A stretch of DNA of 32,000 nucleotides, from NCBI GenBank assembly GCA_000025185.1, contig CP001848.1, forward strand, positions 4,410,001-4,442,000. The letters are read 5' to 3'. The translations under genes were made by a program, and so were the position numbers. This DNA comes from Pirellula staleyi DSM 6068. GTDB taxonomy: Bacteria; Planctomycetota; Planctomycetia; Pirellulales; Pirellulaceae. Shown in pieces: positions 5,464-18,360 of this stretch. The number at the start of each line of letters is the position of its first letter. The first letter of the stretch is position 1. The notes under the pieces were generated by a model, which searched no databases, was not told where the DNA came from, and saw only the letters and a program-made list of their open reading frames with translations.

Positions 5464-6767
5464 CCGATATAGCGATGCCAATCGTCGAAGTCTGCGAGTG
5501 GAAGAGTTGTGATCGGCCCGATCTGAATCTCACCGCCGACGATCGCGCTCTTGCGAAATCACTCGCCCAAGAAGGAAAGTGCCGACTGATCGTCGAAGAG
5601 CGGCGTCGTGGAATTCGGATCACAGCACGGTCTTGGGTAGGTGTAGTGCGATTCACTGAATTTGAGGTGCATGTTCGTCCCAAGCTGGCAGGCGATAACC
5701 TGCGACTCCTTCAAATGATTGAGTTCACTACAGGACTCAATACACTCAAACACTACAGTTCTGTATTGAAGTTAGCTGCAGGTGGTGGGAACCTGCTCGA
5801 TCTGATCATGCTGATGTTTGTTGAGGAGTGCGAACGGATCCTTCGTGGCGGATTGCTTTCGGACTACGTTGAAGAGGAAGAGGAACTTCCGGTCGTGCGA
5901 GGTCGAATGCTGTTTGATCGTCAGATTCGCAAGCGATTGGGTCGACTCGACTTGATCCATTGTCGACACGATGAGCGCAAACAAGACGTCCCCGAGAATC
6001 AGCTTCTTGCCTACGTTCTGGATGTCTGCGCGCGGCATGCCTTCCAGCCAACGCTGCGTCGTAAGGCACGACAGCTCGAACATCATTTGCTGGGGAGCTG
6101 TGATCCATCGTTGCTCGATTTAGTGACCACGCGAGGCGGAATCTACTATGACCGCATGAACGAGCACTATCGTGATGCCCATGAATTGTGCTGGCTGATT
6201 GTGGACGCCCTGGGTATCAGCGACATCTATAGTTCGGGCTCCTCGCGCATCTTTGCGTTTCTACTGGACATGAATCGACTGTTTGAAGTTTTTGTGCTGC
6301 AGGTCCTTCGACAATTGACATCTACGACAGCATTAAAGGTTTCGTATCAATCTTCGGATCGCTCGATCATTCGCGACAGCGCGACGAACCAGCCCTACTC
6401 GAGTGTGATACCCGATTTCCTGATAGCGGCCCCCTCATTGTCAGGCAAATTGGTACTCGACGCAAAATACAAACTTTATGACGCAGCAGGAGTCTCTAAT
6501 TCCGACATCTACCAGTCGTTTTTCTATGCCTATGCGTTTGGCCGTCATCAACTTGGTGGTCACGTTGCAGGTTTGATTTACCCTTCGGAATCAACCACAG
6601 CGAGCCGCAAGGAGCTAACCGTGCGGAGCCAATTTAACGCGAATGCTGCACGCGTTGTATTGATTGGCCTTCCCATACCGGCAGTTCTCGATGAAGCGAA
6701 GTCGCACGTCTGGGGACCAGCTACCGCTCCTCTGCAAACTTTCCTCGCTGAGTTCAATAAGGCGTAG
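5460..6767 (+). CDS. mcrC: McrC-like PD-(D/E)xK nuclease subunit
   Basis: 435 aa, translationally coupled to mcrB. C-terminal nuclease motif IPDF...LVLDAKYKLY (~6408-6480) is typical of McrC. The size and the position downstream of mcrB fit. Confidence 0.85.
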   Translation: MTDIAMPIVEVCEWKSCDRPDLNLTADDRALAKSLAQEGKCRLIVEERRRGIRITARSWVGVVRFTEFEVHVRPKLAGDNLRLLQMIEFTTGLNTLKHYSSVLKLAAGGGNLLDLIMLMFVEECERILRGGLLSDYVEEEEELPVVRGRMLFDRQIRKRLGRLDLIHCRHDERKQDVPENQLLAYVLDVCARHAFQPTLRRKARQLEHHLLGSCDPSLLDLVTTRGGIYYDRMNEHYRDAHELCWLIVDALGISDIYSSGSSRIFAFLLDMNRLFEVFVLQVLRQLTSTTALKVSYQSSDRSIIRDSATNQPYSSVIPDFLIAAPSLSGKLVLDAKYKLYDAAGVSNSDIYQSFFYAYAFGRHQLGGHVAGLIYPSESTTASRKELTVRSQFNANAARVVLIGLPIPAVLDEAKSHVWGPATAPLQTFLAEFNKA

Positions 6768-7866
6768 CGACGCCCAGCGGCAAAGGACCGTTTCGAATGT
6801 CTGTAAGTCTGAAGCGAGCAAACAAACGGCAGGGAAGAGGCACTCCTCACACTGAGGGCTCGCGTCTGTAAATCGCAGTCCTGAAGGCTGTCTCAGTGCC
6901 CAAACCGGGGCGGCAGTCGTGGGTCGGCGAGGTAGTACGCCTCCATTAAATGCCATGCTGACCGGTACCAGAAAGCACTGGTGTGATGGCCCGAAAGGCT
7001 GCAGCGGAAGCCCATCTTAGCTATCTCTCACCCAGGAACCATGAGTCTAGCGAGGTGCTGCGATGCCTCGTGTAGCCCTCTCGCCCATCCACGGAATCGG
7101 ATTCATAGGATTAGTTGCATGACACCTGACAACCCAAGTGAATACTCTCCCGACGGCTCGGGGAGTACTGTGGATGGGCAGCTCGGCTGGCCGCAAATAG
7201 GCCGTCGACACTACCCCCGCACCCTTTCCCGCACTCAATCTCCTATCCCTTAGAAGGGGCTACGGAGAGTGTCTTCGTACCAGTAGTCCTACCTCTCGCG
7301 ACCCCGTGAGCGTGGCTGGCTGGGCTCACTGCTGGCCAGAATGCCGTCCCAGAATGGAGCTATAGATGCCAGCAAAGGCTGGGGGCGAGCCCCATTACAC
7401 CCTGGTCCAATGGTGACGGCCGCCCCGGGGTGAGAGGCTAGGACAGCGTAGGGATGTGTGCATGGCGTGCAGGGCTAGACTGCCCGTTTGGGAGGTAGGA
7501 TCACCTTGTCGGGCAAAATCAACAGGTATCATTGATGGCCCGGAACAGCAAAACGTCTCTTTCAATGCGAACGAGTTGTCGATGTCGGGGTGCTTTTGTA
7601 GTGCGATACTCCCTAGCGAATTCGTTCTAGCACCAGTGCTCACGCGTCAAAAACAAGCATCACTTAACTTATACTTGTCAAAAAAAACACAATCTGGCTG
7701 TGTTTTGGCAGACTAGGCGATTTGGGGGTGGGGCCGTGCGGCTATAGCTCAACTTTTGATCGGCTTCACCCTGAGCGTGGCGAATAGGCTGCGATTACGA
7801 GGCGTGTTCGTTCGCGCGCAAATTGTGGGACGAGCTGATAGCCAAACAATGCTGACACACCTCGAC
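6768..7866. other. ORF-poor ~1.1-kb region of normal GC content; candidate structured RNA or decayed gene
   Basis: Only short ORFs (at most 113 aa) with non-protein-like composition in all six frames. Many short GC stems with small loops, e.g. accag-aaagca-ctggt, ccagc-aaag-gctgg, gggg-cgag-cccc and gcc-cgaaa-ggc. Confidence 0.3.
7684..7706. terminator. Weak bidirectional terminator-like hairpin
   Basis: aaaacaca-atctggc-tgtgtttt. It is flanked by an A8 run on the plus strand (T8 on the minus strand) and by TTTT on the plus strand. The stem is AU-rich, so this is weak. Confidence 0.25.
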
Positions 7867-8058: not shown

Positions 8059-8087
8059 CCCGTATGCGGCTATCTGCCGCATACGGG
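8059..8087 (-). terminator. GC-rich hairpin at the end of the minus-strand clamp/nuclease unit
   Basis: Perfect 12-bp stem cccgtatgcggc / gccgcatacggg with 5-nt loop tatct, 20 nt after the stop at 8107. No U-tract follows. Confidence 0.45.
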
Positions 8088-8106: not shown

Positions 8107-8232
8107 CTAACGTCGTCGTCCGCGACGAAGGCCGACTCCGAATGCTTTGCGGCTACCTAGGGATTTCCCCTGTTGGTAGACCCATGCACCTACCACAAGG
8201 ACGACGACCACCAAGATGATAGATTCGATCAC
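8107..8232 (-). CDS. Small single-pass membrane peptide with an Arg-rich tail (41 aa)
   Basis: GTG at 8232 is preceded by AGGAGA with a 6-nt spacer. Product (M)IESIILVVVVLVVGAWVYQQGKSLGSRKAFGVGLRRGRRR. The longer 96-aa ORF (8107..8397) overlaps the nuclease gene and is unlikely to be real. Confidence 0.35.
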   Translation of the reverse strand: MIESIILVVVVLVVGAWVYQQGKSLGSRKAFGVGLRRGRRR

Positions 8233-8288
8233 GCGAATTCTCCTATTGCACAGTGTTTGTAGATTCGTGTTTTCAATAGTTTGCAAAA

Positions 8289-9113
8289 TCAGCCCTGCCA
8301 ACTGCGGCAAGGCTTTTGAAACGGACAGTTGGGGCAGTTCATTGGCGATGGAATGGGGTAGACGATCCCGCGCCGCATCGCTTGCCAAACCTGCCAAAAA
8401 ATGGATCGAGTCCGCTTAATCCGCGCCGAGTCGATGCTGATCTTGCGCATTTCGACGACAGGCGACTTCGACTTCGTTACCACCAGGAATTGCAGCCGAA
8501 TTGGCTTGCCGGGCATTAGCTCCTTAGCGAGCTCGGAATAGAGCATTAGCTGTCCGCCGCTGTCGTGTGCCTGATGCTGGCTCCATCGGCTTTTCGCAGT
8601 TTTAAGATCCGTCACTACCAGTTCACTGCCCTCGTCGAGTATCAAGTCGACACGAGCAAGTAGTTCGGGGCACCCCTCTACGATTCGACCGCGCAGTTCT
8701 TCTTCTACCCCAACGATTTGGCCGTTCGGGTTTGCCAAAGGACTTGCTCGGAAGGCAGACAGTACACGTTCGGCGAGATCGCTAAGTGAGTTGATGTCTT
8801 CGTCTTTGCCGAACTTGATGCTGGCAAGATCGCGTTCCAGCCACGCCGCATGATAGGCGGAAAGCAGTGTATCCAAGGCCGGAGCTGGATTACCTGACAA
8901 GAGTTCGTAGTAATGTAGTTCGGCAGCTTGGTGGATCGCGCTGCCAAAGACCAAGCTGGACGATACGAAGGCCTCTGGAAGACCGTGGACATACCGAAAA
9001 CACCAGCGCAGTGGACAAGCCTGATACGTCGATATCGCTGACCACGAGATGTAATTTCTGCCCGTCAGTTTCTCAGCTACTTCGTTGGGGTCGACGTCGA
9101 GCTCAAGACTCAT
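8289..9113 (-). CDS. Cas4/RecB-like PD-(D/E)xK exonuclease with a 4-Cys (Fe-S type) arrangement
   Basis: N-terminal Cys in YQACPLRW. Core RVDLILDE...LVVTDLKTAKS (8581-8630). C-terminal CPNCPFQKPC, giving the C...CxxCx5C pattern of Cas4/AddB nucleases. The ATGA start overlaps the upstream gene at 9110-9113. Confidence 0.8.
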   Translation of the reverse strand: MSLELDVDPNEVAEKLTGRNYISWSAISTYQACPLRWCFRYVHGLPEAFVSSSLVFGSAIHQAAELHYYELLSGNPAPALDTLLSAYHAAWLERDLASIKFGKDEDINSLSDLAERVLSAFRASPLANPNGQIVGVEEELRGRIVEGCPELLARVDLILDEGSELVVTDLKTAKSRWSQHQAHDSGGQLMLYSELAKELMPGKPIRLQFLVVTKSKSPVVEMRKISIDSARIKRTRSIFWQVWQAMRRGIVYPIPSPMNCPNCPFQKPCRSWQG

Positions 9114-9565
9114 CGTCCCCCTCCGCTGTCGCTGGTCTGAGGCTTAAACGCATCAATCAGTTCCGAAGCCTCCGTGATCGATAGTTCGTCGGCCCGTTTG
9201 ACACCGTAGCGAGCAGCAACTTCTGATGCTAAGTCGATCGCTTGGCGAGTTGCGATACCGTGGAGCGCGCGAACCTGGCTGGCTGTTGCGCTCCGTCGCT
9301 TTGCTGGATGTTGATGACGGCCGCTACCATGTCCGTTGCCATTAGCGTGGCCGTTGGTCGCCGGAGGTGCCGCTTCGCCTTTCAGCTCCTCCTCAACGGC
9401 TTCTTTCGCGAGCCGAAACAAATAGCGAATCTTCTCGCGCAGTTGGTCCGGTTCCCGGACGAGGCTCGACTCCAGTTCGACCTCCAAGTTTACGCTCGCT
9501 CCTCGCGAGCCATAGTTCGCTTCACCGACTTTGCGGTTAAGGCCGACATTCATCGTAAGTGGCAT
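9110..9565 (-). CDS. Hypothetical protein (151 aa) with a His/Gly/Asn-rich linker
   Basis: GGAGC 7 nt upstream of the ATG. Translationally coupled to the nuclease gene. No motif recognised. Confidence 0.65.
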   Translation of the reverse strand: MPLTMNVGLNRKVGEANYGSRGASVNLEVELESSLVREPDQLREKIRYLFRLAKEAVEEELKGEAAPPATNGHANGNGHGSGRHQHPAKRRSATASQVRALHGIATRQAIDLASEVAARYGVKRADELSITEASELIDAFKPQTSDSGGGR

Positions 9566-9630
9566 GATCTGCTCCGACTTGAAATGGACAACAATAGATC
9601 GAAACGGTGGAGTCGCTTGGCCACCGTTTG

Positions 9631-11079
9631 CTACGCAACATGCTGCAACTGTTTGAGCGAAGCTAGCGCCGACTTGAGTGACTTCTGGCTGCGCTTTTCG
9701 ACGTTGATCTGCCGAATCAGATCCTTGACTGCATCAAGCGTTGATCGCAGTTGGTCTCGCACGACGACAGCCTGCTCGTAAGCTCCACCTGGCCTTTTCG
9801 GCGATGTCGCGGAGCAATGGCGATTGGGCGAGTGCTTCGCAGCGACTCGCGGCTCATTCGTAGGTGGAGCTGAAGAAGCCTGTTGCGCGGCTGGTCTGGA
9901 AGCAATTCGATTCACCGCAATTGCACTTCGAGTAAGTGAGCTAGGTTGACGGTGGCCGGAGCTAAGCGGCGACTCGATGCGAAGGCAATCGGTGGTCGGC
10001 TTGATCGCCTCTTTGGGATCGAGAACCATCCACAAAAAGACGCGGGAACCGTCACGGGCCACAGCAGGCGACGTGTTGTCGGGCAGTTCGATCTCTGTAA
10101 ATCCCAATCGCGCCGCTCGCGCCAAGTACTGGCGATCTGTGCAAACGAGCAGATCGTCGCCTCGCTTACTGGAGTTGCGCAGAACCATCTCGGTGGGGCG
10201 AAGAGTGTCAGGAGCTGAGGCTCGGAGAACGACGTGTCCATTGACGTCGAGCGTCAATTCACGATTCGTTGTGCCGCTCGGGAGTCGATGGAGATTTTCG
10301 GTCAGGAACTTCGCATCGGTAGAACCGAGCTGTAGCGTCGCCTTACTGTGGCCAGGCGCGGGAACAGTTCTGTCCACATCGGGGTAGCGTCCTTCGACGA
10401 CAGGCAGCCAATACGACCAGGGGCCGATCTGGAACACGACCATCTTGTCGCCGCTCTTGCCGACTCGCACCGGCTGATCAGCGGGGAGATGCTTGCTGGC
10501 GAAGAGCTTCGTTTGGCAGAGTAGCAAATCCTCGTCAAATCCAAACGTGAAGCCGGATTGCTTCAGGAGTTGTCGGCCATCGGTGGCGGCAATCACCCCT
10601 TCGCGGCCGCGCACCTGGATGCTTGCGAGTGCGTAGCGACTGCTTTCGGCATCGGTAGTTTCGTATGCTTCGCGCAGTGCAGTCAGAAGCGCGGGCGGAT
10701 TCTCGCTGAAGGTCTCCGGCAGAGTTGGGAACGGTGGAGCATCCGCACTGGATTCAGGAGCATCGTACTCCAGATCGCGCACAATACCTCTGTCTTCCCA
10801 GTTCGCGCCGAGCACGCCGTCGCGGCGAGAGTCTAAATAGACCGGCTCAGGTTTCGATCCCTGAACGTCCTCCAGCACGTTAAACGGAACGAGTAAGTGC
10901 TGCTGCTCACGAGGCTGCGGATCGTGATATCGCAGAGCTTGATTGGCCCCTTGGACATCGATGAACAAGCCATCCTGTCCCGCGCGAAACGCAAGAGCGG
11001 GTATTGGGCCTCGGCCTGGAAACAACATTTTGACCATCGAGCGAAGTTGTTTGGCCAGCAGACGGGAAATTTGAATCAA
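9631..11079 (-). CDS. DNA polymerase III beta sliding-clamp homologue (DnaN-like) with a ~110-aa C-terminal extension
   Basis: SRYALASIQVRGREGVIAATDGRQLL (10561-10600 region) matches the (S/T)RY.L.G...ATDGHRL clamp signature, about 150 aa from the N-terminus as in DnaN. Start chosen as TTG 11079 with AAGGAG 8 nt upstream. The 552-aa track ORF has an implausible N-terminal extension. Confidence 0.75.
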   Translation of the reverse strand: MIQISRLLAKQLRSMVKMLFPGRGPIPALAFRAGQDGLFIDVQGANQALRYHDPQPREQQHLLVPFNVLEDVQGSKPEPVYLDSRRDGVLGANWEDRGIVRDLEYDAPESSADAPPFPTLPETFSENPPALLTALREAYETTDAESSRYALASIQVRGREGVIAATDGRQLLKQSGFTFGFDEDLLLCQTKLFASKHLPADQPVRVGKSGDKMVVFQIGPWSYWLPVVEGRYPDVDRTVPAPGHSKATLQLGSTDAKFLTENLHRLPSGTTNRELTLDVNGHVVLRASAPDTLRPTEMVLRNSSKRGDDLLVCTDRQYLARAARLGFTEIELPDNTSPAVARDGSRVFLWMVLDPKEAIKPTTDCLRIESPLSSGHRQPSSLTRSAIAVNRIASRPAAQQASSAPPTNEPRVAAKHSPNRHCSATSPKRPGGAYEQAVVVRDQLRSTLDAVKDLIRQINVEKRSQKSLKSALASLKQLQHVA

Positions 11080-11167
11080 GGCTAGGACTCCTTGGTGATT
11101 GCAGAAGATCGAAAAGGGGGCAGCAGCCCGATTGCTGCCGCCGTGAAAAAGCCAGCACACAGCGTCG

Positions 11168-11359
11168 TTAGGCCGCGTAGTTTCCTCGCGCCAGATCGAG
11201 CATGTCCCAATCCACCGTATTGGGATCAAGGTTTTCTTCTTCCTGCTCGATCGGAAAGACTTGCAGTGGCGAAATGATGCTGAATCCACGACGACTGACA
11301 GTACGGACCGATTCGCCGGTGGCTTCCGCCACAGCTTGGTTTAGTTCTGCTTGGGTCAT
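11168..11359 (-). CDS. Small protein (63 aa); N-terminus resembles HU/IHF helix 1
   Basis: Internal ATG 11359 is preceded by GAGGAG. MTQAELNQAVAEATGESVRTVS resembles the MxKxELxxAVAExTGxS start of HU/IHF proteins, but the protein is too short to be a full HU. Confidence 0.45.
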   Translation of the reverse strand: MTQAELNQAVAEATGESVRTVSRRGFSIISPLQVFPIEQEEENLDPNTVDWDMLDLARGNYAA

Positions 11360-11390
11360 GTAAAATCTCCTCAAACAAGTAGTGACAAAC

Positions 11391-11427
11391 AAAAAAGGCT
11401 CGCCAGCGCACGCGCGCAGAACGAGCC
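11391..11427 (-). terminator. Intrinsic terminator splitting the minus-strand block into two units
   Basis: Minus strand reads GGCTCG-ttct-GCGC-gcgt-GCGC-tgg-CGAGCC followed by TTTTTTGTTTG. It lies between the stop at 11473 and the next start at 11359. Confidence 0.55.
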
Positions 11428-11472
11428 CGACAAATGGCTTGAGCAAAATTCAAAAGAGAAGCGCAGCGAGCG

Positions 11473-11718
11473 CTAGACAGCTGGTGTAAGCCAATGCTCT
11501 GCCAGCCAGGCCACCTCGGCCGCTAAGGCGTCGCTGCGAGATTCAAACGGCCCTAGAGTAGGACCGGAAACCGGTGACAGATCGCAGAGCCAGCGTCCCT
11601 GCGAATCGGGCTCGACGTGCGATCCTCGGCGAATGGTGAGTAGTCCGAACTGCGCGAGGTCAATCGCTTCGCTGTAGATGCAGCGCAGGTCGCCGCTGGG
11701 TTCAATGACTAGCTCCAT
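11473..11718 (-). CDS. Hypothetical protein (81 aa)
   Basis: ORF starts 9 nt after the upstream stop (operon packing). Normal composition. No motif recognised. Confidence 0.55.
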   Translation of the reverse strand: MELVIEPSGDLRCIYSEAIDLAQFGLLTIRRGSHVEPDSQGRWLCDLSPVSGPTLGPFESRSDALAAEVAWLAEHWLTPAV

Positions 11719-11726
11719 GGGGATAG

Positions 11727-12671
11727 TCAGCCCTTTCCCCGGCGCAGAATGTTACGGCGAGGCTTATCGACCAGCAGGCCGTCAAGCGTTGCTTGAACGG
11801 TCGAGAGCTGTGTGGCGATTTCTTGCCGGAGCGCGGCATCGTCGCGCAGTTGCTGTGGCTGGACTCCCGAAACGATGCTGCGGGCATCGGACACTAGCGA
11901 GTCGAGCTGTTCATTGGATCGTACATTGAGTTGCCGGAAGCGCTCGAAGAACTCACGCAGGTTCTCGATGGCCGAGTCGCGGAAGATTTTTGGCTTGCCG
12001 TCGTCGCCACCGCTAAGCCGCTCCGTGAGATGCGAAACGAGCTTCGCCAGTTCTTCTGTGAACGCTTGTTCGGCAAGCTGAACCGCTTCATCGAATCGCG
12101 CAGCAACACGGGCGGCTTCGCGCTCGTAAAGCTGCGGCGCGAGCCGATGGAGATAGTTGGGCGGTTCCACGGACGGAAAATCCCAACTCACGTCGAACCA
12201 ACCACGCAGCGTCGCCGGATAATCACTCGCGTTGTAGAGCGACCCGAGCCTGCGACGGGCGGCCGACTTCAATTCGTCGTACCGAGTTTCAAGTTGCCGC
12301 ACCGATTCTTCCAGCTCCTGCCGGAAGGTCGTGAGCTGCAGCGAGAACCCTTCGATCATGACTTGGCGAATCAGGCGAATCCCCGGCTCGGGAAACGGGA
12401 GCGAGACATTCCGCCAGTACGCAAGAATCTGGGTTCGTACACTCGTGACCGCTTTGAAACTGGGATGGGACGTATCGAGCAGCTTCTTCCCGGCTGACAG
12501 ATAGGTTCGCTCGGCCCCGAAGGTCTCGGCCGCTTGCGACTTTTGTTCGGCGCTGAGGGTCTTACGGACTCCAAGCCAGGTGAACATGACGCGGACGGCT
12601 GCCGTCGTGGCGCGCAGTCGCTCCACCGAATCGCTGGCCGCATTAGAAAGATCGTCTAATAGTGTGGGCAT
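11727..12671 (-). CDS. Hypothetical helical protein (314 aa), possibly DUF3150-like
   Basis: AAGGAA 6 nt upstream of the ATG. Long predicted coiled/helical segments. The DUF3150 assignment is from memory of family-like length and context only. Confidence 0.6.
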   Translation of the reverse strand: MPTLLDDLSNAASDSVERLRATTAAVRVMFTWLGVRKTLSAEQKSQAAETFGAERTYLSAGKKLLDTSHPSFKAVTSVRTQILAYWRNVSLPFPEPGIRLIRQVMIEGFSLQLTTFRQELEESVRQLETRYDELKSAARRRLGSLYNASDYPATLRGWFDVSWDFPSVEPPNYLHRLAPQLYEREAARVAARFDEAVQLAEQAFTEELAKLVSHLTERLSGGDDGKPKIFRDSAIENLREFFERFRQLNVRSNEQLDSLVSDARSIVSGVQPQQLRDDAALRQEIATQLSTVQATLDGLLVDKPRRNILRRGKG

Positions 12672-12716
12672 GAAGATTCCTTGGAATTTGGTTAAGAGTT
12701 AGGGGGCGATGGAGAG

Positions 12717-13280
12717 CTACGCCGCGCGGCGAAGGCCAAGCGACTTGCCGATTTCAAACGCTGGTAACGGTGATGGCCTGACAGGGATGATCCGCTGGAA
12801 CCGCTGCATCACCTCGTCGCATTGTTGCCGTAGCTGTCGTCGCGGCCCGCGATACAACTGCCTGCGAAACGCAGTGAGTGTTTCGGCGAACTCCCAGACT
12901 GGCAGTGCGGCTGTCACCAGTTCGCCATCGTGCAGTGGCAATGAACACTCGCCGATTTCAGGGCGATACACGGTGAGTGTCTCACCGCCGTCAAACCCGG
13001 CTTCGGTTTGGAGATCAAACGGGATTCGTCGCTTGCGGAGGAACGCTTCGAGCGGCTCCATCCGCCCATGACGGGCCTCTGCATCCAACAGACGCAGTAC
13101 ACTTTCGCCGTCAATTGTTTGCCGCGCGGCGAGTAGATCGTCCGCCGACTGTGGCAAGAATGGCTCATCGCCCCAATCGAGGGCGACTCGCTGCAAGCGA
13201 ATCGTTGAACACAGACTTGGCACGATCGCCCGTGAAAGGCAGCCGCCGATGGTGATTTGAGCGGCGCGAAAATCCGACAT
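12717..13280 (-). CDS. Hypothetical protein (187 aa)
   Basis: Internal ATG 13280 (MSDFRAAQ...) is preceded by AGGAG 8 nt upstream. The upstream extension to 13355 lacks an RBS. Confidence 0.6.
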   Translation of the reverse strand: MSDFRAAQITIGGCLSRAIVPSLCSTIRLQRVALDWGDEPFLPQSADDLLAARQTIDGESVLRLLDAEARHGRMEPLEAFLRKRRIPFDLQTEAGFDGGETLTVYRPEIGECSLPLHDGELVTAALPVWEFAETLTAFRRQLYRGPRRQLRQQCDEVMQRFQRIIPVRPSPLPAFEIGKSLGLRRAA

Positions 13281-13363
13281 CGGACATCTCCTGAAATATG
13301 AAAAAGTTTGTTGGGAATGCGCATCCACTACGCAGCGGACGCGCTGTAGCAACACAAGTTCCC

Positions 13364-14854
13364 TTAGTTCTGCGACGGATCACGCGAGACTTTGCGGCGA
13401 GCCTTGGTCTCCGCCGCGCACCGGTAGATCCCAGGTTGGTCGGCACTGAGGCAGCGCCCCGATGCCCACGCGCGCAACTTGCTGACCGATTCGGCGGCAG
13501 TGACGGCGACTGGCACGACGTTCTGTGCAGCCTGAATCAGCGGCAGGTCGAGAATTGAGGCCAGACGACAGCAAGCTCGAATCTCAGCGCCTGTCCAACC
13601 TTCGTCAGGAGGGAGTCGTTGGCGAGCATCGAGGTCAAACTGATGGAGGTACAGTCGCCAAATCGCTTGACGCTCCTCCTCACCTGGCAAGTTCAAAAAG
13701 AAGACACCGTCGAAACGCTCAGCTCGCGAGAACTCGGGAGGTAGCCGCGAAATGTCGTTGCACGTGGCAACTAAGTAGACATCACTGGTGTGATCGTTCA
13801 TCCAAGTGAGCAGCGAACCGAACAGCCTTGCCGAGACACCGCTATCACCGCTGCTTCCAACACCCGAGAGACTCTTTTCAATCTCATCTGCAAACAGGAT
13901 GCAGGGGGACATGGCGTCGGCAATCTTGAGCGCCTGCCGAATATTGGATTCCGACTGACCGACGAGGCTCCCCATCAGTGCGCCGATATCGAGCGTAAGT
14001 GTTGGCCTGCCAGTTTCGTGCCCCAACGCTTTGGCAAATGCGCTCTTCCCTGTGCCAGGTACACCCAGCAGCAGCACACCGCGCGGACGCTTGTGAGGCT
14101 GTCGCTGTGAAGTGTGCAGCAACGATCGCTTGCAAAATGCTTTCAGTGCTTGGAGTCCTCCCAAGCTCTGAAAGTCCTGCTCACTTCGATGCAATTGCAG
14201 CAGACCACTTTTCTTTAGCTGTTGCGATTTGAGTTCCCAAAGTGGTTGGGGTTCGATCCTTCCGTGTCGAACAAGTGAGAGGCTAAATGCGTTCTCAGCT
14301 TCGTGTCGCGTAAGGCCTACCGCCGCATCCAGAACGCGATCGAGCCCCGCTCCCGAAGGAAGCTCTCCCTCTTCTGTCGCTACTTCCTGGGCAATCGACC
14401 GTAGCTGCTCGCGTGACGGCAGCTCATGCTCCATCACCACGAATAACTTTTCGAGCTCCACCGGAATCTGAACGATCGGCGCGAGAATCACCAATATGGT
14501 TCGATTCTGTTTACCGGCCACGATCTGACGAGCGAGTGCCTGAACAATCTCTGCGCTCTGCAGGAATCGGTGGAAATTCTGAAGCACGAGAATCGCAGTG
14601 CCATCGGGGGTCGCCAGACCGTTGATTGATCGGATTGCCGCGAGTGGATCTTGGCCACCGCTTTCCGTGGGGGACGATTGTGCTGCGATCACCAATCCCG
14701 ATTCGATGTCCCAAGTGGCCATGTGCCATGCAGGTTGTTGCTGCTCACACATCTGGCGGATTTCAGTGAGAGCGTCGGAATGTTCGTGGGATTCAATCCA
14801 TAGTCCGCTGAAAGCAGCGGCAATGTGTTCTTGCAGTTGGGTAGCTAAGGACAT
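13364..14854 (-). CDS. Classical-clade AAA+ ATPase, Ycf46-like (496 aa)
   Basis: Walker A GVLLLGVPGTGKS (14041-14080), Walker B CILFADEIEK (13873-13902), and an FtsH/Cdc48-type second region of homology. ATG 14854 is preceded by GGGAGGTG. The N-terminal domain MSLATQLQEHIAAAFSGLWIESHEHSDAL resembles Ycf46-type proteins. Confidence 0.88.
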   Translation of the reverse strand: MSLATQLQEHIAAAFSGLWIESHEHSDALTEIRQMCEQQQPAWHMATWDIESGLVIAAQSSPTESGGQDPLAAIRSINGLATPDGTAILVLQNFHRFLQSAEIVQALARQIVAGKQNRTILVILAPIVQIPVELEKLFVVMEHELPSREQLRSIAQEVATEEGELPSGAGLDRVLDAAVGLTRHEAENAFSLSLVRHGRIEPQPLWELKSQQLKKSGLLQLHRSEQDFQSLGGLQALKAFCKRSLLHTSQRQPHKRPRGVLLLGVPGTGKSAFAKALGHETGRPTLTLDIGALMGSLVGQSESNIRQALKIADAMSPCILFADEIEKSLSGVGSSGDSGVSARLFGSLLTWMNDHTSDVYLVATCNDISRLPPEFSRAERFDGVFFLNLPGEEERQAIWRLYLHQFDLDARQRLPPDEGWTGAEIRACCRLASILDLPLIQAAQNVVPVAVTAAESVSKLRAWASGRCLSADQPGIYRCAAETKARRKVSRDPSQN

Positions 14855-15088
14855 AGCACCTCCCTGGAAATTTGAATGTTGCGCGGCATCCAAAACGGTG
14901 AGCCGAAGAAGAAACCTTGCTGCAACGAGCAGTAGGTCTTTAGAAGTCACAGCGCGAAGGCGCATAGCCCTGCCCTGCGATCGAAATGTTTGGTTGGCCA
15001 AGACTGATTAGGAGCGACAGCGAGTATGGCCTGCTGCTGTATGTGATAGGAGTTGAGTTCTGCAGTGATCGCAGACGCGAGAAATCGA

Positions 15089-15286
15089 CTAACCGGCTCG
15101 CCCCTCGTGCGATTGTTGCTGTGTCGATGGAGTGTAGAACTCGCTGGTCAGCTTCTCGGATGTCACAGCTCCTAGCGCCTGCTCTAAGTAGGCCGACGCG
15201 GACTTGCATTCTTGACCGCCAATTCCTTTCGTGTGAATGGAAAGTTGACCACTCGTTGAAATAATCACTTCGATGATCTGGCTCAC
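15089..15286 (-). CDS. DUF2997-like small protein (65 aa)
   Basis: (M)SQIIEVIISTSGQLSIHTKGIGGQECKSASAYLEQALG fits the DUF2997 pattern (I.V.I.pdG.v.i..kG..G..C......le.aLG). The GTG start overlaps the upstream stop (GTGA), and GGGAGG lies upstream. Confidence 0.65.
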   Translation of the reverse strand: MSQIIEVIISTSGQLSIHTKGIGGQECKSASAYLEQALGAVTSEKLTSEFYTPSTQQQSHEGRAG

Positions 15287-15651
15287 GCTGCACCTCCCAC
15301 ATGGATGGTCAGTTTGATCTCGCCGCTGGGAAGTGTTTGCTCGGTGACGGAATGTCCGCGTTTACGAGCCTCGATCTTCGCTTTTTCAGCAGCGTAGGCT
15401 TGCAGAAACTTGTCGAGTTCAGCTTGCTCCCCCCAGCGCCCGCCATAGTTGTCAAAATCAACCCGCCCACTGCTGACATCAACGACAGCCGGATATTTCC
15501 AGCCTGGTAGCTGAACGATCAGTCCTGTTTTCGTCGTAGTAAATAGCTTCGCTGTGCCCTGCGTCGGTGCCGGAATTCTGATCCGCCGACAGGCAGCATC
15601 CACAGCCACTGGATCACGAACTTGCGTTTGAATCTGAACAATGTGTGACAT
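15283..15651 (-). CDS. DUF1257 (Ycf35-like) protein (122 aa)
   Basis: MSHIVQIQTQVRD...LPGWKYPAVVD...DNYGGRWGEQAELDKFLQAYA matches the remembered DUF1257 pattern (MSHFS.I.T.I.D ... GW.YP ... Y.G.WG). AGGAGG 8 nt upstream of the ATG. Confidence 0.72.
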   Translation of the reverse strand: MSHIVQIQTQVRDPVAVDAACRRIRIPAPTQGTAKLFTTTKTGLIVQLPGWKYPAVVDVSSGRVDFDNYGGRWGEQAELDKFLQAYAAEKAKIEARKRGHSVTEQTLPSGEIKLTIHVGGAA

Positions 15652-15737
15652 GGGTTATGTCCTCCTAGCGGAAGGTAGATCGAATAGCTCGCAGCAGAAG
15701 GCAGGAGCATCGGGATGGCCAGATTGGCCACGAGTGA

Positions 15738-15771
15738 GCGTGAACTTTACAAATGCTCGCAAAGTTCACGC
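15738..15771. promoter_or_regulatory. 11-bp perfect palindrome upstream of the DUF1257 operon (candidate operator)
   Basis: gcgtgaacttt (15738-15748) and aaagttcacgc (15761-15771) with a 12-nt spacer. It lies 87-120 nt upstream of the 15651 start and downstream of the J-domain gene terminator. Confidence 0.4.
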
Positions 15772-15898
15772 GTCGTGATGGATACACTCCACCACCAACT
15801 CTTTATGACGCAATTGATGCGGCTATTTAGGCTCGGCTTTGGCCTGTAGATGGACGCGCAATCTCGGTAGCAATCGCGTCGAACTTGGGCGAAAACAA

Positions 15899-15925
15899 GA
15901 AGGCCCCGCAGGGGCATATTCCTTC
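15899..15925 (-). terminator. Intrinsic terminator of the J-domain/protease gene
   Basis: Minus strand reads GAAGG-aatatg-CCCC-tgc-GGGG-CCTTC followed by TTGTTTTC. It starts 66 nt after the stop at 15991. Confidence 0.5.
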
Positions 15926-15990
15926 GGCGAATAGCAAGCTGGTAAAGCGATGCTCTGCAGAATTGGCTCGAATGAAAGTGGCTCCGTCAG

Positions 15991-17649
15991 CTACTCTTTG
16001 CGACCGTAGCCACAGCCCGGACAGTGACCTACCGAGTACATGGTGTAGGAGTTTCTTTTGCACTGGGGACACTCCACTTCTCCCCACCCTTTCTTCGCTA
16101 TTCCATTGTCAGCAGGAATTGACTTTTGAGAGTTGTCCTCGACGCTTGCACTACGAAATGTTTTTGTGATCCAAGCACCTGCGGCTGCTAGAACTGCAGG
16201 AACGACAATCCATAGGAGATATCCGAAACGCGAAAGCCGAAATGCCATACCAAGTATGTCTGTTTTTTGGTGTGTACTTTTTGAATTTCTCTCTCGCTGC
16301 GTCTGGAGGGCTAGTGGTGCATTTGGGCCAGTGCTATTGATGGAAGTGTCGAGACCTGTTGAATGCTTGGAAGATTCCTGATCGCCGACAGCGGCTGCGA
16401 CGCCGTAGACCTGGCCGATCAGCTGAGCTGCTCCTGCGGGATTGGCGTCGGCCCAAATCAACTCGGCGGACGAAACTTCGTCGGCGGAAATGGCCATTGA
16501 TAACGCAGCACCATCGGCTCCACGTGTGTTAATACCGATCCAGTGGTATCGTTCACCTTGGCGTAGAAATAATGGTCCACCACTGTTGCCAGGACTGATC
16601 GACGCATCGTGTTGTATCCACGTGGCCCCCGAAGTCGCGCTCTTGGGAGCCCGCAGTGAGCTAATTCTTCCGAACGTCATGCTGTTAGCAAACAAAATGT
16701 CAAGTGGCGTACCGACTGCAACGACTTCGCCACCATTTTTCACTTCGAGTACTTTCATCGCGTTAGAGACTTTCGGGACAACGACGTAGTCCAAACCGGC
16801 AACCAGTCCATTGGGATTCACTTCGATGCACGCGACATCGAGGTTGGGATCGGCCGCAAGGCCGACTCTCTCAGCTCGCCGCTTGGCTCCCGATGGAAAC
16901 TGCACCTCCAGTGCAAACTGTGTGATGTTCGCAGTACGATCGCGCTGTTTAGTTGCTCGACCAGCAACGTCTTCCAAACCAATCACGTGCGCGTTGGTAA
17001 AGAGGCGCAGCTTGCCACCGGTATTTTCAGTAACAACCGACGAGCCTAGTTTGATGAGAGCCTGCGAGAAGTCTCTTTCATTCACAGTTGCTACGATTGC
17101 CGGTGAAGTCTTCTCTAGATCGTCGAATCGGAGTGACGAAACGCCGCCAGAGAAAAGCGACATCGATAGCAGAATCAACGCTAACACTGCCACAGCGCCG
17201 CTGCCGACGAGAGCCAGTATCTTTTGTTCGTCTCGTTTGGTCGTGCCAAGATACGCGAGCCATGTGGCGCATCCCAAGCCTGCGAGACCCATGACTATAA
17301 ACACAAGTCGCCAAACTGATTGCAACAAACAAAAGGTCATCAGCAGCACAACGGTCACTACAGCGACTGCCACCCATCGCTGCAGAAGCCATTGGACTAC
17401 TGGGTGAATTGCGGCTAGAGCTGTATTAGTAGGTGCTTTTGGCCCGCTCTTTTCTGGAATGGTGAGCTCGGCATTGCCCGGTTGGCCCAATTTTTTCATT
17501 AGCTGTTCATAGGCGACTAGCACCTGTTGGTAGGCCCAGCTGTCGCCTCCCGAATCGGGATGATATCGCTTTACTCGCTCGCGATAGGCCGCTTCGATTT
17601 GATCTATGGTGGCGTCGTCGTCGAGGCCGAGAATCTTGTAGGGAGTCAT
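15991..17649 (-). CDS. Membrane protein fusing a J-domain, TM helices, a trypsin-like (S1/DegP-type) serine protease, a further TM helix and a C-terminal zinc ribbon
   Basis: YKILGLDDDATIDQIEAAYRERVKRYHPD (HPD at 17554-17562). Several hydrophobic helices at aa ~85-170. Candidate triad TNAHVI / DVACIEV / GNSGGPLF (~16566-16595). TM helix YLLWIVVPAVLAAAGAWI. C-terminal CPQC...CPGC. Confidence 0.85.
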   Translation of the reverse strand: MTPYKILGLDDDATIDQIEAAYRERVKRYHPDSGGDSWAYQQVLVAYEQLMKKLGQPGNAELTIPEKSGPKAPTNTALAAIHPVVQWLLQRWVAVAVVTVVLLMTFCLLQSVWRLVFIVMGLAGLGCATWLAYLGTTKRDEQKILALVGSGAVAVLALILLSMSLFSGGVSSLRFDDLEKTSPAIVATVNERDFSQALIKLGSSVVTENTGGKLRLFTNAHVIGLEDVAGRATKQRDRTANITQFALEVQFPSGAKRRAERVGLAADPNLDVACIEVNPNGLVAGLDYVVVPKVSNAMKVLEVKNGGEVVAVGTPLDILFANSMTFGRISSLRAPKSATSGATWIQHDASISPGNSGGPLFLRQGERYHWIGINTRGADGAALSMAISADEVSSAELIWADANPAGAAQLIGQVYGVAAAVGDQESSKHSTGLDTSINSTGPNAPLALQTQRERNSKSTHQKTDILGMAFRLSRFGYLLWIVVPAVLAAAGAWITKTFRSASVEDNSQKSIPADNGIAKKGWGEVECPQCKRNSYTMYSVGHCPGCGYGRKE

Positions 17650-18360
17650 TGATTGCCCTCGGTTGTGTTGGATACCGAAAGGCCTCAGTCAGCGCATAAA
17701 AACAGGGAGCGCCGAACCAAGGCCGCTCGCTCCACCCCCGCCAAGGGGCGATCAGAACAGCGCAAGGCCGACGCCCCCCTTTCGGGAGGCGTTCGGTCCG
17801 AGCACTGCATCTGATCTCAAGGGCCCGAAGACCCAGGTTGGCGGTTTTGGAGCGATGCAAATGTGGACGCGTAACGCGTCGTTCAAATTGTCGGTAAGTC
17901 GCCTGCTGGCGACGGAAAAATCTCCTTGGACGGTCATGGCGCAACAGCACGAAAGCGCCACTGCGGCCCCTCAGTATAGCAAGCCGTATTCGGAATGCTC
18001 GTCCTCTGCAAAAAGTACTCTGGCGATTCGCTTGCTCGGCAAAAAACAGTCGCCACGAGCGAATTGCACCTTCGGACTGGCAGTCCGCGATAAGGTCCAA
18101 AGATTGCTTCTCAGGTCAGGTTGTCGCCGAGTCCGACATGCCTTTGGCGCGCACGGCCAAGGGCAGAGTGTTCAAGCGATCGCCATGACATGTGACATGA
18201 GTACGATCGGCCTTCGAAAAAAGATGTCCAGAATGCGTTATGCACTCTCCTTTTGTCAAACTTGAATGGAAACGAGTGATGAACATCGAAACTCAGTTAC
18301 TCGATAACGAGTAAACCATGTGCGAGCCTATAACTGGCAATCTTCACGGAGACCAATGTC

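What the first reader, a model, noticed from the sequence alone, without database searches (positions are those of the whole stretch)
8107..17649. Eleven co-oriented, mostly uncharacterised genes sandwiched between McrBC and the helicase/methyltransferase operon
All are on the minus strand with tight packing (overlaps at 9110-9113 and 15283-15286, gaps of 9-90 nt). Two intrinsic terminators (15899-15925, 11391-11427) divide them into three units. Only generic activities are recognisable: J-domain, serine protease, AAA+ ATPase, sliding clamp, Cas4-like nuclease. No capsid, tail, integrase or conjugation genes are visible. In defence islands, unknown operons flanked by restriction-type systems are enriched for new immune systems. 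The same gene set could equally be the replication/recombination module of the mobile element suggested by the iterons.
Basis: inference. Interest (0 to 1): 0.7.

Follow-up and report, generated by a model that had tools for sequence, protein, structure and literature searches.

The report
Conserved mobile-element gene module, not immunity
The block between McrBC and the helicase operon is mostly a conserved gene module of unknown function that phages, plasmids and integrated elements carry in several bacterial phyla, and the defence genes around it are swappable cargo rather than partners.

Summary
The window comes from the Pirellula staleyi DSM 6068 chromosome (gene 9110-9565 is Psta_3408). 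The minus-strand block is real and tightly packed, and all its genes are under purifying selection. It is not one eleven-gene system.

About 8.3 kb (8107-16434) forms a conserved cassette. Its core is DUF1257, DUF2997, a Cdc48-like AAA+ ATPase, DUF3150 and an 81-aa protein. This core recurs in about 50 Planctomycetota loci, often in several diverged copies per genome. It also occurs on circular Ca. Manganitrophus plasmids, in Tunturiibacter phage Tunturi_3 and in Acidobacteriota elements that carry PRTRC genes.

The 3' part (DnaN-like clamp, Psta_3408, a Cas4-like nuclease and a 41-aa membrane peptide) is optional. Other elements carry a Ubl, Zn-ribbon and E1 set in that position.

The J-domain protease and the 212-aa gene are lineage-specific extras.

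The flanks differ in every close relative: McrBC plus DruE/UvrD/DpdE-like helicases here, CBASS plus PDC-S39 in one relative, and a type I methyltransferase in another.

The best reading is a backbone module of a mobile element, acting in DNA processing or establishment, flanked by variable defence cargo. The mechanism is inferred. A new defence or anti-defence role is not excluded.

The parts
8107..8232 (-). 41-aa membrane peptide with a basic tail (VIESIILVVVVLVVGAWVY...GLRRGRRR). It is the last gene of the cassette.
   Evidence: Conserved in L081 and called as a 41-aa gene in L082/83. dN/dS is 0.14 against L081. DNA homology to L081 ends at its stop codon. Present in 7 of 30 eligible Planctomycetota loci.
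8289..9113 (-). Cas4-like PD-(D/E)XK nuclease with a 4-Cys cluster (274 aa).
   Evidence: Pfam PDDEXK_1 7.9e-33. phrog_69 exonuclease 2.7e-19. TIGR00372 cas4 scores 37.9 bits against a cut-off of 65. Cysteines at 33, 260, 263 and 269. Present in 9 of 31 eligible loci.
9110..9565 (-). Psta_3408, 151 aa. It has an N-terminal beta-hairpin plus helix, an N/G/H-rich linker, a C-terminal three-helix domain and a GGRR tail. Function unknown; I infer it binds DNA or the clamp.
   Evidence: 100% identical to Psta_3408 of Pirellula staleyi DSM 6068; 1049 homologues. Alignment A5. AF2 pLDDT 67, with the C-terminal domain at 84-88. No PDB relative. Present in 16 of 33 eligible loci.
9631..11079 (-). DnaN-type beta sliding-clamp homologue (about 482 aa) with a C-terminal linker and helix of about 120 aa.
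   Evidence: Profile A2 matches PDB beta clamps at E=1e-11, with some alignments spanning domains 1-3. phrog_947 processivity factor 1.9e-7. A 'DNA polymerase III subunit beta' gene sits beside the DUF3150-like gene on a B. gladioli plasmid. Present in 15 of 36 eligible loci.
11168..11359 (-). 63-aa protein (MTQAELNQAVAEATGESVRTVSRRGF...). From memory, its N-terminus resembles the first helices of HU/IHF.
   Evidence: Called as a 63-aa gene in L081-L083, L093 and L094. dN/dS 0.25. Present in 29 of 39 eligible loci.
11385..11428 (-). Terminator-like hairpin plus U-tract between the 81-aa and 63-aa genes.
   Evidence: Fold of -25.5 kcal/mol, z=-1.5, followed by UUUUUUGUUUGU. Listed in weaker form by the scan.
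11473..11718 (-). 81-aa protein that always follows the DUF3150 gene.
   Evidence: Present in 41 of 43 eligible loci. 53% identical over 75 aa to the gene after DUF3150 on the Ca. Manganitrophus plasmid, E=2e-22. dN/dS 0.11.
11727..12671 (-). DUF3150-family protein (314 aa), the most constant partner of the ATPase.
   Evidence: tblastn to annotated DUF3150 proteins at 5e-38. Alignment A1. The AF2 model (pLDDT 73.6) matches a viral 'DUF3150 domain-containing protein' at E=1.7e-11, TM 0.67-0.71. No PDB fold match. At least 6091 homologues. Present in 41 of 43 Planctomycetota and 24 of 24 Acidobacteriota-type loci.
12717..13355 (-). 212-aa protein of unknown function in a variable slot. Not part of the conserved module.
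   Evidence: No family hit. Found in 3 of 46 eligible loci. 96% identical in L081 with dN/dS 0.12.
13364..14857 (-). Classic-clade (Cdc48/p97-like) AAA+ ATPase of 497 aa with a family-specific N-terminal domain of about 230 aa.
   Evidence: Pfam AAA 2.7e-28. phrog_8638 4.7e-89, full length. Best PDB matches are Cdc48/p97 at 8.7e-44, covering residues 230-440 only. Walker A GVPGTGKS. dN/dS 0.05.
15089..15286 (-). DUF2997 protein (65 aa).
   Evidence: Pfam DUF2997 1.4e-16. Present in 44 of 48 Planctomycetota and 24 of 27 Acidobacteriota-type loci.
15283..15651 (-). Divergent DUF1257 protein (122 aa).
   Evidence: Pfam DUF1257 E=0.045. Profile-profile match to annotated DUF1257 proteins at probability 96.9%, E=1.7e-10. 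Present in 44 of 48 eligible loci.
15903..15915 (-). Weak terminator-like hairpin after the protease gene.
   Evidence: 5-bp GC stem followed by CUUCUUGUUUUC. The fold is no more stable than shuffles, z=0.0.
15991..17649 (-). J-domain, TM, trypsin-like protease, TM and Zn-ribbon protein (552 aa). It is a lineage-specific accessory gene. Only its last 147 codons are shared with L081.
   Evidence: DnaJ 1.2e-9 and Trypsin_2 2.5e-19. HPD and GNSGG motifs are intact. Only 4 full-length homologues, in other mobile-element contexts. L081 keeps an 85-aa TM plus Zn-ribbon ORF.
2926..6767 (+). Left flank: McrB (EVE plus AAA_5, with extra N-terminal modules) and McrC. Variable defence cargo.
   Evidence: McrBC 1.8e-54, AAA_5 5.6e-14 and EVE 3.5e-7. 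Absent from all 80+ related loci.
19400..29870 (+). Right flank: a DruE-like helicase (1845 aa), a UvrD-like helicase and a DpdE-like SNF2 helicase. Variable defence cargo.
   Evidence: PADLOC DruE3 1.6e-101, GajB-like UvrD 9.5e-28 and DpdE 1.4e-262. Not conserved beside the block in relatives.

Best explanation
The stretch is a composite.

Shown:
- Positions 8107-16434 form a conserved cassette under purifying selection. It belongs to mobile genetic elements, not to the host's immune repertoire.
- Its five-gene core is DUF1257, DUF2997, a Cdc48-like AAA+ ATPase, DUF3150 and an 81-aa protein. The full five-gene set is carried by a circular plasmid and by integrated, multi-copy Planctomycetota elements. 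Parts of it occur in a tailed phage and in Acidobacteriota elements.
- In Planctomycetota the core is followed by one of two sets. One is a DnaN-like clamp, Psta_3408, a Cas4-like nuclease and a 41-aa peptide, as here. The other is a Ubl, Zn-ribbon and E1 set.
- The J-domain protease, the 212-aa gene and the restriction-type systems on both sides are variable additions.

Inferred mechanism:
- The module works on the element's own DNA when the element enters a cell or is induced.
- The Fe-S PD-(D/E)XK nuclease resects or trims DNA ends.
- The clamp homologue, the 63-aa HU-like protein and Psta_3408 tether the nuclease to DNA.
- The hexameric unfoldase, guided by its small partners (DUF1257, DUF2997, DUF3150 and the 81-aa protein), remodels or removes a protein bound to that DNA.
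- The result would be that the element can replicate, recombine or become established.
For: Same gene order elsewhere:
- The order recurs in about 50 Planctomycetota loci. Presence among eligible loci: DUF1257 44/48, DUF2997 44/48, DUF3150 41/43, the 81-aa gene 41/43, clamp 15/36, nuclease 9/31, protease N-terminus 1.

Mobile-element behaviour:
- There are several diverged copies per genome: three in PLYM01, JBBDXA and JALHQZ, four in CAWHRX, and three DUF3150 genes in Anatilimnocola floriformis.
- Decayed or interrupted copies exist. One is IS-disrupted in Lignipirellula cremea, and one carries a group II intron in the ATPase gene of A. aggregata.
- A large serine recombinase lies directly upstream in 6 loci. 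Tyrosine integrases, IS110, DDE transposases and TniQ occur in the flanks.

Bona fide mobile elements carry it:
- Circular Ca. Manganitrophus plasmids carry JAB, AAA, DUF1257, DUF2997, DUF3150 and the 81-aa homologue, with toprim, helicase and ParB genes nearby.
- Tunturiibacter phage Tunturi_3 carries the ATPase gp103, a DUF3150-like gp96 and a Cas4-domain exonuclease gp75.
- A MoxR, DUF3150 and vWA variant occurs in cyanophage MinM2 near a DnaG/twinkle primase.
- An ATPase, DnaN-like and DUF3150-like set lies beside PRTRC and a T4SS on a conjugative B. gladioli plasmid.
- Acidobacteriota relatives carry prim-pol, SSB, Sipho_Gp157, a Gp3-like RDF, PRTRC_B and PRTRC_E.

Variable flanks:
- The closest relative, L081, is 90% identical over 8109-16434 only. 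It is flanked by CBASS (cyclase 3.9e-115, 2TM effector 5.9e-48) and PDC-S39.
- L082 is flanked by a type I methyltransferase (1.3e-159).

Other support:
- All genes have dN/dS of 0.05-0.40 against L081.
- The window holds iterons beside a wHTH protein and a ParB-HTH-like gene.
Against: - No integrase, replication initiator, primase or transfer gene lies inside the cassette or elsewhere in the 32-kb window. The element around it and its boundaries are therefore not defined.
- Homology between copies, both between genomes and within one genome, stops at the edges of the cassette. A self-contained accessory system such as a defence system would behave the same way.
- The three nearest relatives all have defence genes next to the cassette, and roughly a tenth of a flank sample hit defence models. 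By guilt by association the cassette could be immune.
- The mechanism is inferred from domain identities only.
- DUF3150, DUF1257, DUF2997, the 81-aa protein and Psta_3408 have no known activity and no PDB relative.
Confidence: 0.6

Rival explanations
1. The cassette is itself a new anti-phage or anti-plasmid defence system that rides on mobile elements. The AAA+ ATPase and its partners would sense infection. The clamp-tethered Cas4-like nuclease, or the Ubl/E1 set in other variants, would be the effector.
For: - It lies between McrBC and DruE/UvrD/DpdE-like genes.
- Its nearest relatives lie beside CBASS, PDC-S39 and a type I RM methyltransferase.
- The flank sample includes IetAS, BrxD/PglZ, PycC, DrmMII and RT models.
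- The ATPase is distantly IetA-like (1.7e-20).
- The 3' part swaps between a nuclease set and a Ubl/E1 set. Sensor-plus-effector defence systems show the same modularity.
- The cassette moves as a unit whose homology ends at its own edges.
Against: - Six of the ten proteins scanned have no PADLOC hit.
- The IteA equivalog scores 66.5 bits against a cut-off of 510.
- Three or four diverged copies per genome, and frequent decay, are unusual for a defence system.
- The core also sits in the early or replication regions of phages that can be cultured and on plasmids next to primase, helicase, SSB and ParB genes.
- Many flanks are ordinary host genes.
Confidence: 0.15
2. The cassette is a counter-defence or establishment module. 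It would be expressed early by the incoming element to neutralise host nucleases or nucleoid proteins. The unfoldase would strip or destroy host defence proteins, and the nuclease and clamp would repair or protect the element's DNA.
For: - It is present in the early or non-structural regions of phages and beside PRTRC and a T4SS on conjugative plasmids.
- It is associated with ParB-like genes, orphan methyltransferase plus SNF2 genes and SSB in Acidobacteriota elements. From general knowledge, these are typical of regions that enter the recipient first.
- The ATPase is an unfoldase type (Cdc48-like, 8.7e-44).
Against: - No similarity to any known anti-defence protein was found.
- No expression data are available.
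- In the integrated P. staleyi copy the genes are intact and under purifying selection without an obvious way to transfer.
Confidence: 0.15
3. There is no functional unit. Unrelated small operons simply lie next to each other in a gene-dense island.
For: - The protease gene and the 212-aa gene are not conserved with the rest.
- Terminator-like sites are not more frequent than chance.
- The 3' part is optional.
Against: - Order and orientation of 10-11 genes are kept at 30-70% protein identity across dozens of genomes. The five-gene core is kept in full on a Nitrospirota plasmid, and parts of it recur in Acidobacteriota and in a phage.
- Two 4-nt start/stop overlaps occur within the block.
Confidence: 0.05

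Closest known systems
AAA, DUF1257, DUF2997 and DUF3150 cluster on circular Ca. Manganitrophus plasmids (CP114559, CP114554, CP114562)
   Same: The same five core families are present, including the 81-aa gene after DUF3150 (53% identity). The ATPase is 37% identical over 94% of its length. A ParB-family gene lies downstream.
   Different: The gene order differs: the ATPase comes before DUF1257 and DUF2997. A JAB-domain gene lies upstream. There is no clamp, Psta_3408-like gene or Cas4-like nuclease in the stretch examined. It sits on a plasmid rather than a chromosome.
PRTRC (ParB-related, ThiF-related cassette) neighbourhood on conjugative plasmids and ICEs, for example Burkholderia gladioli p1
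   Same: A DUF3150-like gene lies next to an ATPase and a DnaN-like gene. Acidobacteriota relatives of the window's ATPase and DUF3150 pair carry PRTRC_B (5.8e-48), PRTRC_E and ThiF. Planctomycetota relatives carry a ThiF/E1 gene after the core.
   Different: No window protein matches any PRTRC model. The window has no ThiF, E2 or Ubl gene. The plasmid ATPase pairs with a vWA protein rather than with DUF1257 and DUF2997. The function of PRTRC is itself unknown; no functional paper was found.
Early or replication region of Tunturiibacter phage Tunturi_3, and the MoxR, DUF3150 and vWA set of cyanophage MinM2
   Same: In Tunturi_3 the ATPase gp103 is 27% identical over 407 aa, the DUF3150-like gp96 matches at E=2e-24 over 92% of its length, and a Cas4-domain exonuclease (gp75) lies on the same strand. 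An annotated DUF3150 gene lies near a primase in MinM2.
   Different: These are phage genomes with structural genes elsewhere. Many small phage genes are interspersed. No clamp homologue was seen. MinM2 uses a MoxR-type ATPase and a vWA protein.
IetAS (AAA+ ATPase plus serine protease) anti-plasmid and anti-phage system
   Same: An AAA+ ATPase with distant similarity to IetA (1.7e-20) and a serine protease gene are both in the block.
   Different: The IteA equivalog scores 66.5 bits against a cut-off of 510. From general knowledge IetS is a subtilisin-type protease, whereas this one is trypsin-like with a J-domain. The protease is absent from every other locus that has the ATPase.
Phage exonuclease and recombination modules, and CRISPR Cas4
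   Same: The nuclease has a PD-(D/E)XK fold with a Cas4/AddB-type four-cysteine cluster. It hits phage exonuclease families (phrog_69 2.7e-19).
   Different: It scores below the cas4 cut-off (37.9 against 65). No CRISPR array or cas genes are in the window. No recognisable single-strand annealing protein was found. Its partner is a clamp homologue, which is unusual.
Cyanobacterial DUF2997, ycf35 (DUF1257) and fed7 gene cluster
   Same: The same pair of small families is adjacent there (PMC4284462).
   Different: That is a chromosomal housekeeping context with a ferredoxin. No ATPase, DUF3150, clamp or nuclease is reported in that cluster.

Membership tests
DUF3150 family (gene 11727-12671) | Sequence or fold homology to DUF3150 proteins. 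| tested here: met
   The Pfam DUF3150 model itself did not hit at E<=0.1. However, tblastn to annotated DUF3150 proteins gives 5e-38. The full-length alignment A1 includes them. The AF2 model matches a viral DUF3150 protein at E=1.7e-11, TM about 0.7.
DUF1257/Ycf35 family (gene 15283-15651) | Homology to DUF1257. | tested here: met
   The Pfam hit is only E=0.045, 14.4 bits against a cut-off of 22.2. The profile-profile comparison with annotated DUF1257 proteins gives probability 96.9%, E=1.7e-10 over 114 columns.
DnaN-type beta sliding clamp (gene 9631-11079) | Three-domain beta-clamp fold, recognisable by sequence profile. | tested here: met
   The profile of 9 homologues matches 38 PDB beta-clamp sequences. 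The best is E=1e-11, and some alignments cover positions 1-358. Ring formation and DNA loading were not tested.
IetAS defence system | An IetA-equivalog ATPase above the curated cut-off. | tested here: not met
   NF042959 IteA_antiphage scores 66.5 bits against a cut-off of 510. The PADLOC IetA hit of 1.7e-20 covers the AAA domain only.
IetAS defence system | A conserved partnership of the ATPase with its protease. | tested here: not met
   The protease N-terminus was found in 1 locus, the window only, among 88 loci with the ATPase.
CRISPR-associated Cas4 | A score above the cas4 equivalog cut-off, and adjacency to cas genes or a CRISPR array. | tested here: not met
   TIGR00372 scores 37.9 bits against a cut-off of 65. 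No repeat array is in the window. No cas genes are among the window ORFs scanned.
PRTRC system | Presence of PRTRC A-F, a ThiF protein and a ParB family protein. | tested here: not met
   No window protein hits a PRTRC model at E<=0.1. PRTRC_B, PRTRC_E and ThiF occur only in distant relatives' loci.
Mobile-element backbone module | Occurrence on independently recognised mobile elements (phage genomes, circular plasmids). | tested here: met
   The core is on three circular Ca. Manganitrophus plasmids, in Tunturi_3 phage and, in variant form, in MinM2 phage and 55 plasmids.
Mobile-element backbone module | Multiple diverged copies per genome, decayed copies, and adjacency to recombinases or transposases. 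| tested here: met
   See for copy number, for decay, and for serine and tyrosine recombinases, IS110, DDE transposases and TniQ.
Mobile-element backbone module | Defined element ends (att sites, integrase, empty site in a sister genome) around the P. staleyi copy. | not testable with these tools
   The source genome is not readable beyond the window. Exact-protein look-ups of window genes returned nothing. No tRNA or integrase is in the window.
Anti-phage defence system (generic) | Statistical enrichment of each family next to known defence genes, and a protective phenotype. | not tested
   Only a sample is available. Three of three nearest relatives are flanked by defence genes. About 12-15 defence-type proteins occur among 116 flank proteins. 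No genome-wide background and no experiment are available.

The most novel reading that the evidence does not exclude
The core would be a mobile-element-borne segregase: a Cdc48-like unfoldase with dedicated adaptors (DUF1257, DUF2997, DUF3150 and the 81-aa protein). It would pull proteins that encircle or coat DNA off the element's genome. Candidate substrates differ between variants: the DnaN-like ring here and on Burkholderia plasmids, a Ku-like ring in Corndog-type mycobacteriophages, and Ubl-tagged targets in the variants that carry Ubl, E1 and JAB genes. That would make it a prokaryotic counterpart of p97-driven extraction of proteins from chromatin. Alternatively, the same machine could serve as a new immune or counter-immune effector.
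Probability: 0.1. Interest if true: 0.85.

Novelty: new variant of a known kind. Interest (0 to 1): 0.45.

Why it matters
The DUF3150 partner of this ATPase has at least 6000 homologues in the public protein collection, and none has a known function or a solved structure. The same core travels in phages, plasmids and integrated elements of several phyla.

In Planctomycetota the core marks a family of islands that carry different defence systems on either side. Recognising the cassette as backbone rather than immunity has two practical uses:
- It avoids a false-positive 'new defence system'.
- It gives an anchor for finding defence cargo in a phylum whose mobile elements are almost undescribed.

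The core also pairs a Cdc48-like unfoldase with either a clamp plus nuclease or a ubiquitin-like conjugation set. This points to an untested piece of mobile-element biology.

Tried and rejected
- IetAS membership: rejected. The ATPase is far below the cut-off and the protease is not conserved with it.
- CRISPR Cas4: rejected. The score is below the cut-off and there is no array or cas genes.
- PRTRC membership of the window genes: rejected.
- Homology of Corndog-type phage gp99 and gp101 to DUF3150 and DUF1257: no pairwise similarity.
- Close relatives in IMG/VR viral contigs: none with a single-protein query.
- PDB relatives of DUF3150 and Psta_3408, by sequence profile and by fold: none.
- Structured RNA in the intergenic regions: no tRNA, no Rfam hit and no excess folding stability in the conserved 490-nt stretch.
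- Pseudogene remnants in 17650-19400: nothing found by tblastx against all loci.
- Exact-protein look-ups to extend the P. staleyi context beyond the window: nothing on record.
- Literature on DUF2997, DUF1257, DUF3150 or PRTRC function: only incidental mentions.
- The Psta_3408 model is too uncertain (pTM 0.35) for a fold search.

Full report
SOURCE AND ANATOMY

The gene at 9110-9565 is 100% identical to Psta_3408 of Pirellula staleyi DSM 6068, and the protease gene matches that strain's 'heat shock protein DnaJ domain protein'. The window is therefore chromosomal DNA of that planctomycete.

On the minus strand between 8107 and 17649 I count 13 genes, not 11. In order of transcription they are:
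- a J-domain, TM, trypsin-like, TM and Zn-ribbon protein (15991-17649);
- a divergent DUF1257 protein (15283-15651);
- DUF2997 (15089-15286);
- a Cdc48-like AAA+ ATPase (13364-14857);
- a 212-aa unknown (12717-13355);
- a DUF3150-family protein (11727-12671);
- an 81-aa protein (11473-11718);
- a 63-aa protein (11168-11359);
- a DnaN-type clamp homologue (9631-11079);
- Psta_3408 (9110-9565);
- a Cas4-like Fe-S nuclease (8289-9113);
- a 41-aa membrane peptide (8107-8232).

The domain calls rest on the following results:
- Pfam, PADLOC, PHROGs and NCBIfam scans;
- a profile search of the PDB for the clamp, E=1e-11;
- a profile-profile comparison for DUF1257, probability 96.9%;
- tblastn, alignment and a fold match for DUF3150;
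- motif checks.

Against the closest relative every gene, including the small ones, shows dN/dS of 0.05-0.40, so they are real coding genes.

Of the two proposed terminators, the one at about 11385-11428 looks genuine and the one at 15903-15915 is weak. Terminator-like sites are not more frequent than in shuffled sequence.

WHAT IS CONSERVED AND WHAT IS NOT

A scan of one genome per species found 155 relatives of the ATPase, and 80 loci were fetched. Two methods gave a presence table among loci with enough flanking sequence: tblastn synteny, and iterated HMM searches over all reading frames.

In Planctomycetota the counts are:
- DUF1257 44/48;
- DUF2997 44/48;
- DUF3150 41/43;
- the 81-aa gene 41/43;
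- the 63-aa gene 29/39;
- clamp 15/36;
- Psta_3408 family 16/33;
- nuclease 9/31;
- 41-aa peptide 7/30;
- the 212-aa gene 3/46;
- the protease N-terminus in the window only.

The middle one is the core, the 3' one is optional, and the 5' one is private to this lineage. Where the clamp, Psta_3408 and nuclease set is absent, many loci carry a 77-aa ubiquitin-like protein, a 349-aa Zn-ribbon protein and a ThiF/E1 enzyme instead.

CLOSE RELATIVES DEFINE THE CASSETTE AND SHOW THAT THE FLANKS ARE CARGO

A metagenomic contig (L081) is 90% identical to the window over 8109-16434 and nowhere else, apart from a 490-nt non-coding patch.
- Upstream it carries a CBASS operon (cyclase 3.9e-115, 2TM effector 5.9e-48) and a PDC-S39 candidate.
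- Downstream it carries a DUF123 gene and ParB-like genes.

A second relative (L082/83) is flanked by a type I methyltransferase and a sigma54-type activator.

The window itself has McrBC on one side. On the other side it has a DruE-like, a UvrD-like and a DpdE-like helicase.

The homology break on the 5' side falls inside the protease gene. L081 keeps only an 85-aa TM plus Zn-ribbon ORF. Full-length homologues of the protease do exist elsewhere, next to an HTH repressor-like gene and a large serine recombinase. L081 is therefore the truncated form.

THE CASSETTE BEHAVES LIKE PART OF A MOBILE ELEMENT

- Several genomes hold three or four copies that are 70-96% identical only within the cassette.
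- Anatilimnocola floriformis has three DUF3150 genes.
- Copies decay. In Lignipirellula cremea the ATPase is truncated and an IS66 replaces the nuclease. In A. aggregata a group II intron sits in the ATPase gene.
- A large serine recombinase lies directly upstream of the cassette in six loci.
- A random sample of 116 flanking proteins contains tyrosine and serine recombinases, IS110 and DDE transposases and TniQ. It also contains some defence proteins (IetAS, BrxD/PglZ, PycC, DrmMII, RT) and many ordinary host genes.

THE CORE IS CARRIED BY RECOGNISED PHAGES AND PLASMIDS

- Three circular Ca. Manganitrophus plasmids encode JAB, AAA, DUF1257, DUF2997, DUF3150 and the 81-aa homologue. Toprim, helicase and ParB genes are nearby.
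- Tunturiibacter phage Tunturi_3 has the ATPase, a DUF3150-like gene that is mis-annotated as HNH, and a Cas4-domain exonuclease on one strand.
- Cyanophage MinM2 has a MoxR, DUF3150 and vWA set near a primase.
- A conjugative Burkholderia gladioli plasmid has an ATPase, a 'DNA polymerase III beta' gene, a DUF3150-like gene and a vWA gene between a PRTRC set and a T4SS.
- Acidobacteriota relatives add prim-pol, SSB, Sipho_Gp157, a Gp3-like directionality factor, PRTRC_B and PRTRC_E.
- Corndog-type mycobacteriophages have a full-length ATPase homologue a few kb from ParB-like and Ku-like genes. Their neighbouring genes show no detectable similarity to DUF3150 or DUF1257.

INTERPRETATION

The shown facts fit a backbone module of mobile elements flanked by variable cargo.

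The window also holds a plausible replicon nearby. There are 23-nt iterons at 1627-1739, beside a winged-helix protein with an HTH_36-type match and a ParB-HTH-like gene.

The mechanism is inferred from the parts. They are a clamp-tethered Fe-S nuclease, small DNA-binding proteins, and an unfoldase of the Cdc48 type (8.7e-44 to Cdc48/p97) with four small dedicated partners. Together they suggest processing of the element's DNA and remodelling of a protein bound to it during entry, induction or replication.

I put 0.6 on 'mobile-element function, not host immunity'. I put much less on any specific step of the mechanism.

A defence role (0.15) or a counter-defence role (0.15) is not excluded. 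The cassette moves as a self-contained unit and keeps company with defence genes.

WHAT IS NEW

The individual families are catalogued as DUFs, and the PRTRC neighbourhood is annotated in genomes. I found no paper that describes this cassette or assigns it a function.

DUF3150 has at least 6091 homologues and no PDB relative by sequence or fold.

The Planctomycetota form has the clamp, Psta_3408, nuclease and peptide extension. I rate it a new variant of a known kind of thing: conserved accessory or replication-region modules of mobile elements.

LIMITS

- The island ends in P. staleyi could not be determined.
- No genome-wide enrichment statistic could be computed.
- ORF calling in the related loci was crude. 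I used a greedy longest-ORF method and cross-checked it with HMM searches over all frames.
- Two structure libraries were offline.

Noticed in passing
window 1627-1739, with genes 213-1463 and 2027-2686: Tandem 23/32-nt repeats (TGAAACTGCGAAAATGGTAATC, about 4 copies) lie between two genes. One encodes a 416-aa winged-helix protein (HTH_Crp_2 3.4e-8, HTH_36 8.9e-5). The other is a DUF1016_N/ParB-HTH-like gene. The arrangement looks like an iteron-type replication origin with its initiator.
   Followed up: partly
window 7355-7846: A 490-nt non-coding stretch is 80.5% identical to L081 16898-17387, with patches at 95-100%. In L081 a DUF123 gene separates it from the cassette. It shows no codon periodicity, no Rfam hit and no excess RNA stability, and it is absent from all other loci. 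It could be a regulatory or origin-like DNA element.
   Followed up: partly
window 8059-8087: A perfect 11-bp-stem hairpin (CCGUAUGCGGC-AGAUA-GCCGCAUACGG, z=-5.07) lies about 20 nt past the last stop codon of the cassette. That is exactly where homology to L081 ends. No U-tract follows it.
   Followed up: partly
window 19400-29870: The right-hand operon encodes a DruE-like 1845-aa helicase (DEAD, Helicase_C, MZB, DUF559), a UvrD-like helicase and a DpdE-like SNF2 helicase (PADLOC DpdE 1.4e-262). There is no DruH, no Dpd modification gene and no methyltransferase. This three-helicase combination matches no complete known system.
   Followed up: partly
window 2926-5463: The McrB homologue is 845 aa. 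Ahead of its EVE and AAA_5 parts it carries N-terminal regions that match PD-T4-1 (1.1e-24) and PDC-S02 (2.9e-13) models.
   Followed up: no
window 15991-17649; L091 479-2284; L092 5726-6892: The J-domain, TM, trypsin-like protease, TM and Zn-ribbon architecture is rare, with four full-length homologues. It occurs next to HTH_3 repressor-like genes, a large serine recombinase, and an HTH_3 plus Peptidase_M78 gene. This hints at a role in mobile-element regulation.
   Followed up: partly
L007, L011, L014, L016-L018, L034 (for example L018 13946-16482): In these relatives the clamp, Psta_3408 and nuclease set is replaced by three other genes. They are a 77-aa ubiquitin-like beta-grasp protein, a 349-aa Cys-rich Zn-ribbon protein and a ThiF/E1 enzyme. 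This puts a ubiquitin-like conjugation set next to a Cdc48-like ATPase.
   Followed up: partly
L082 5537-7048; L081 1-340 and 6025-6236: Sigma54-type activator genes, with an N-terminal domain that recalls RtcR from memory, lie directly upstream of the cassette in L082/83. Remnants of such a gene abut the truncated protease gene in L081. None is present in the window.
   Followed up: partly
L093 5956-9314 (Anatilimnocola aggregata); L094 8024-9757 (A. floriformis): In one copy of the cassette the ATPase gene is split by a group II intron (RVT_1, Intron_maturas2, HNH). In another copy the ATPase carries a PIN_12 N-terminal domain and the DUF1257/DUF2997 pair is missing.
   Followed up: no
L087 8905-9864 (Tunturiibacter phage Tunturi_3 gp96): The phage gene annotated 'HNH endonuclease' is in fact a DUF3150-like protein, with E=2e-24 to the window gene over 92% of its length.
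   Followed up: partly
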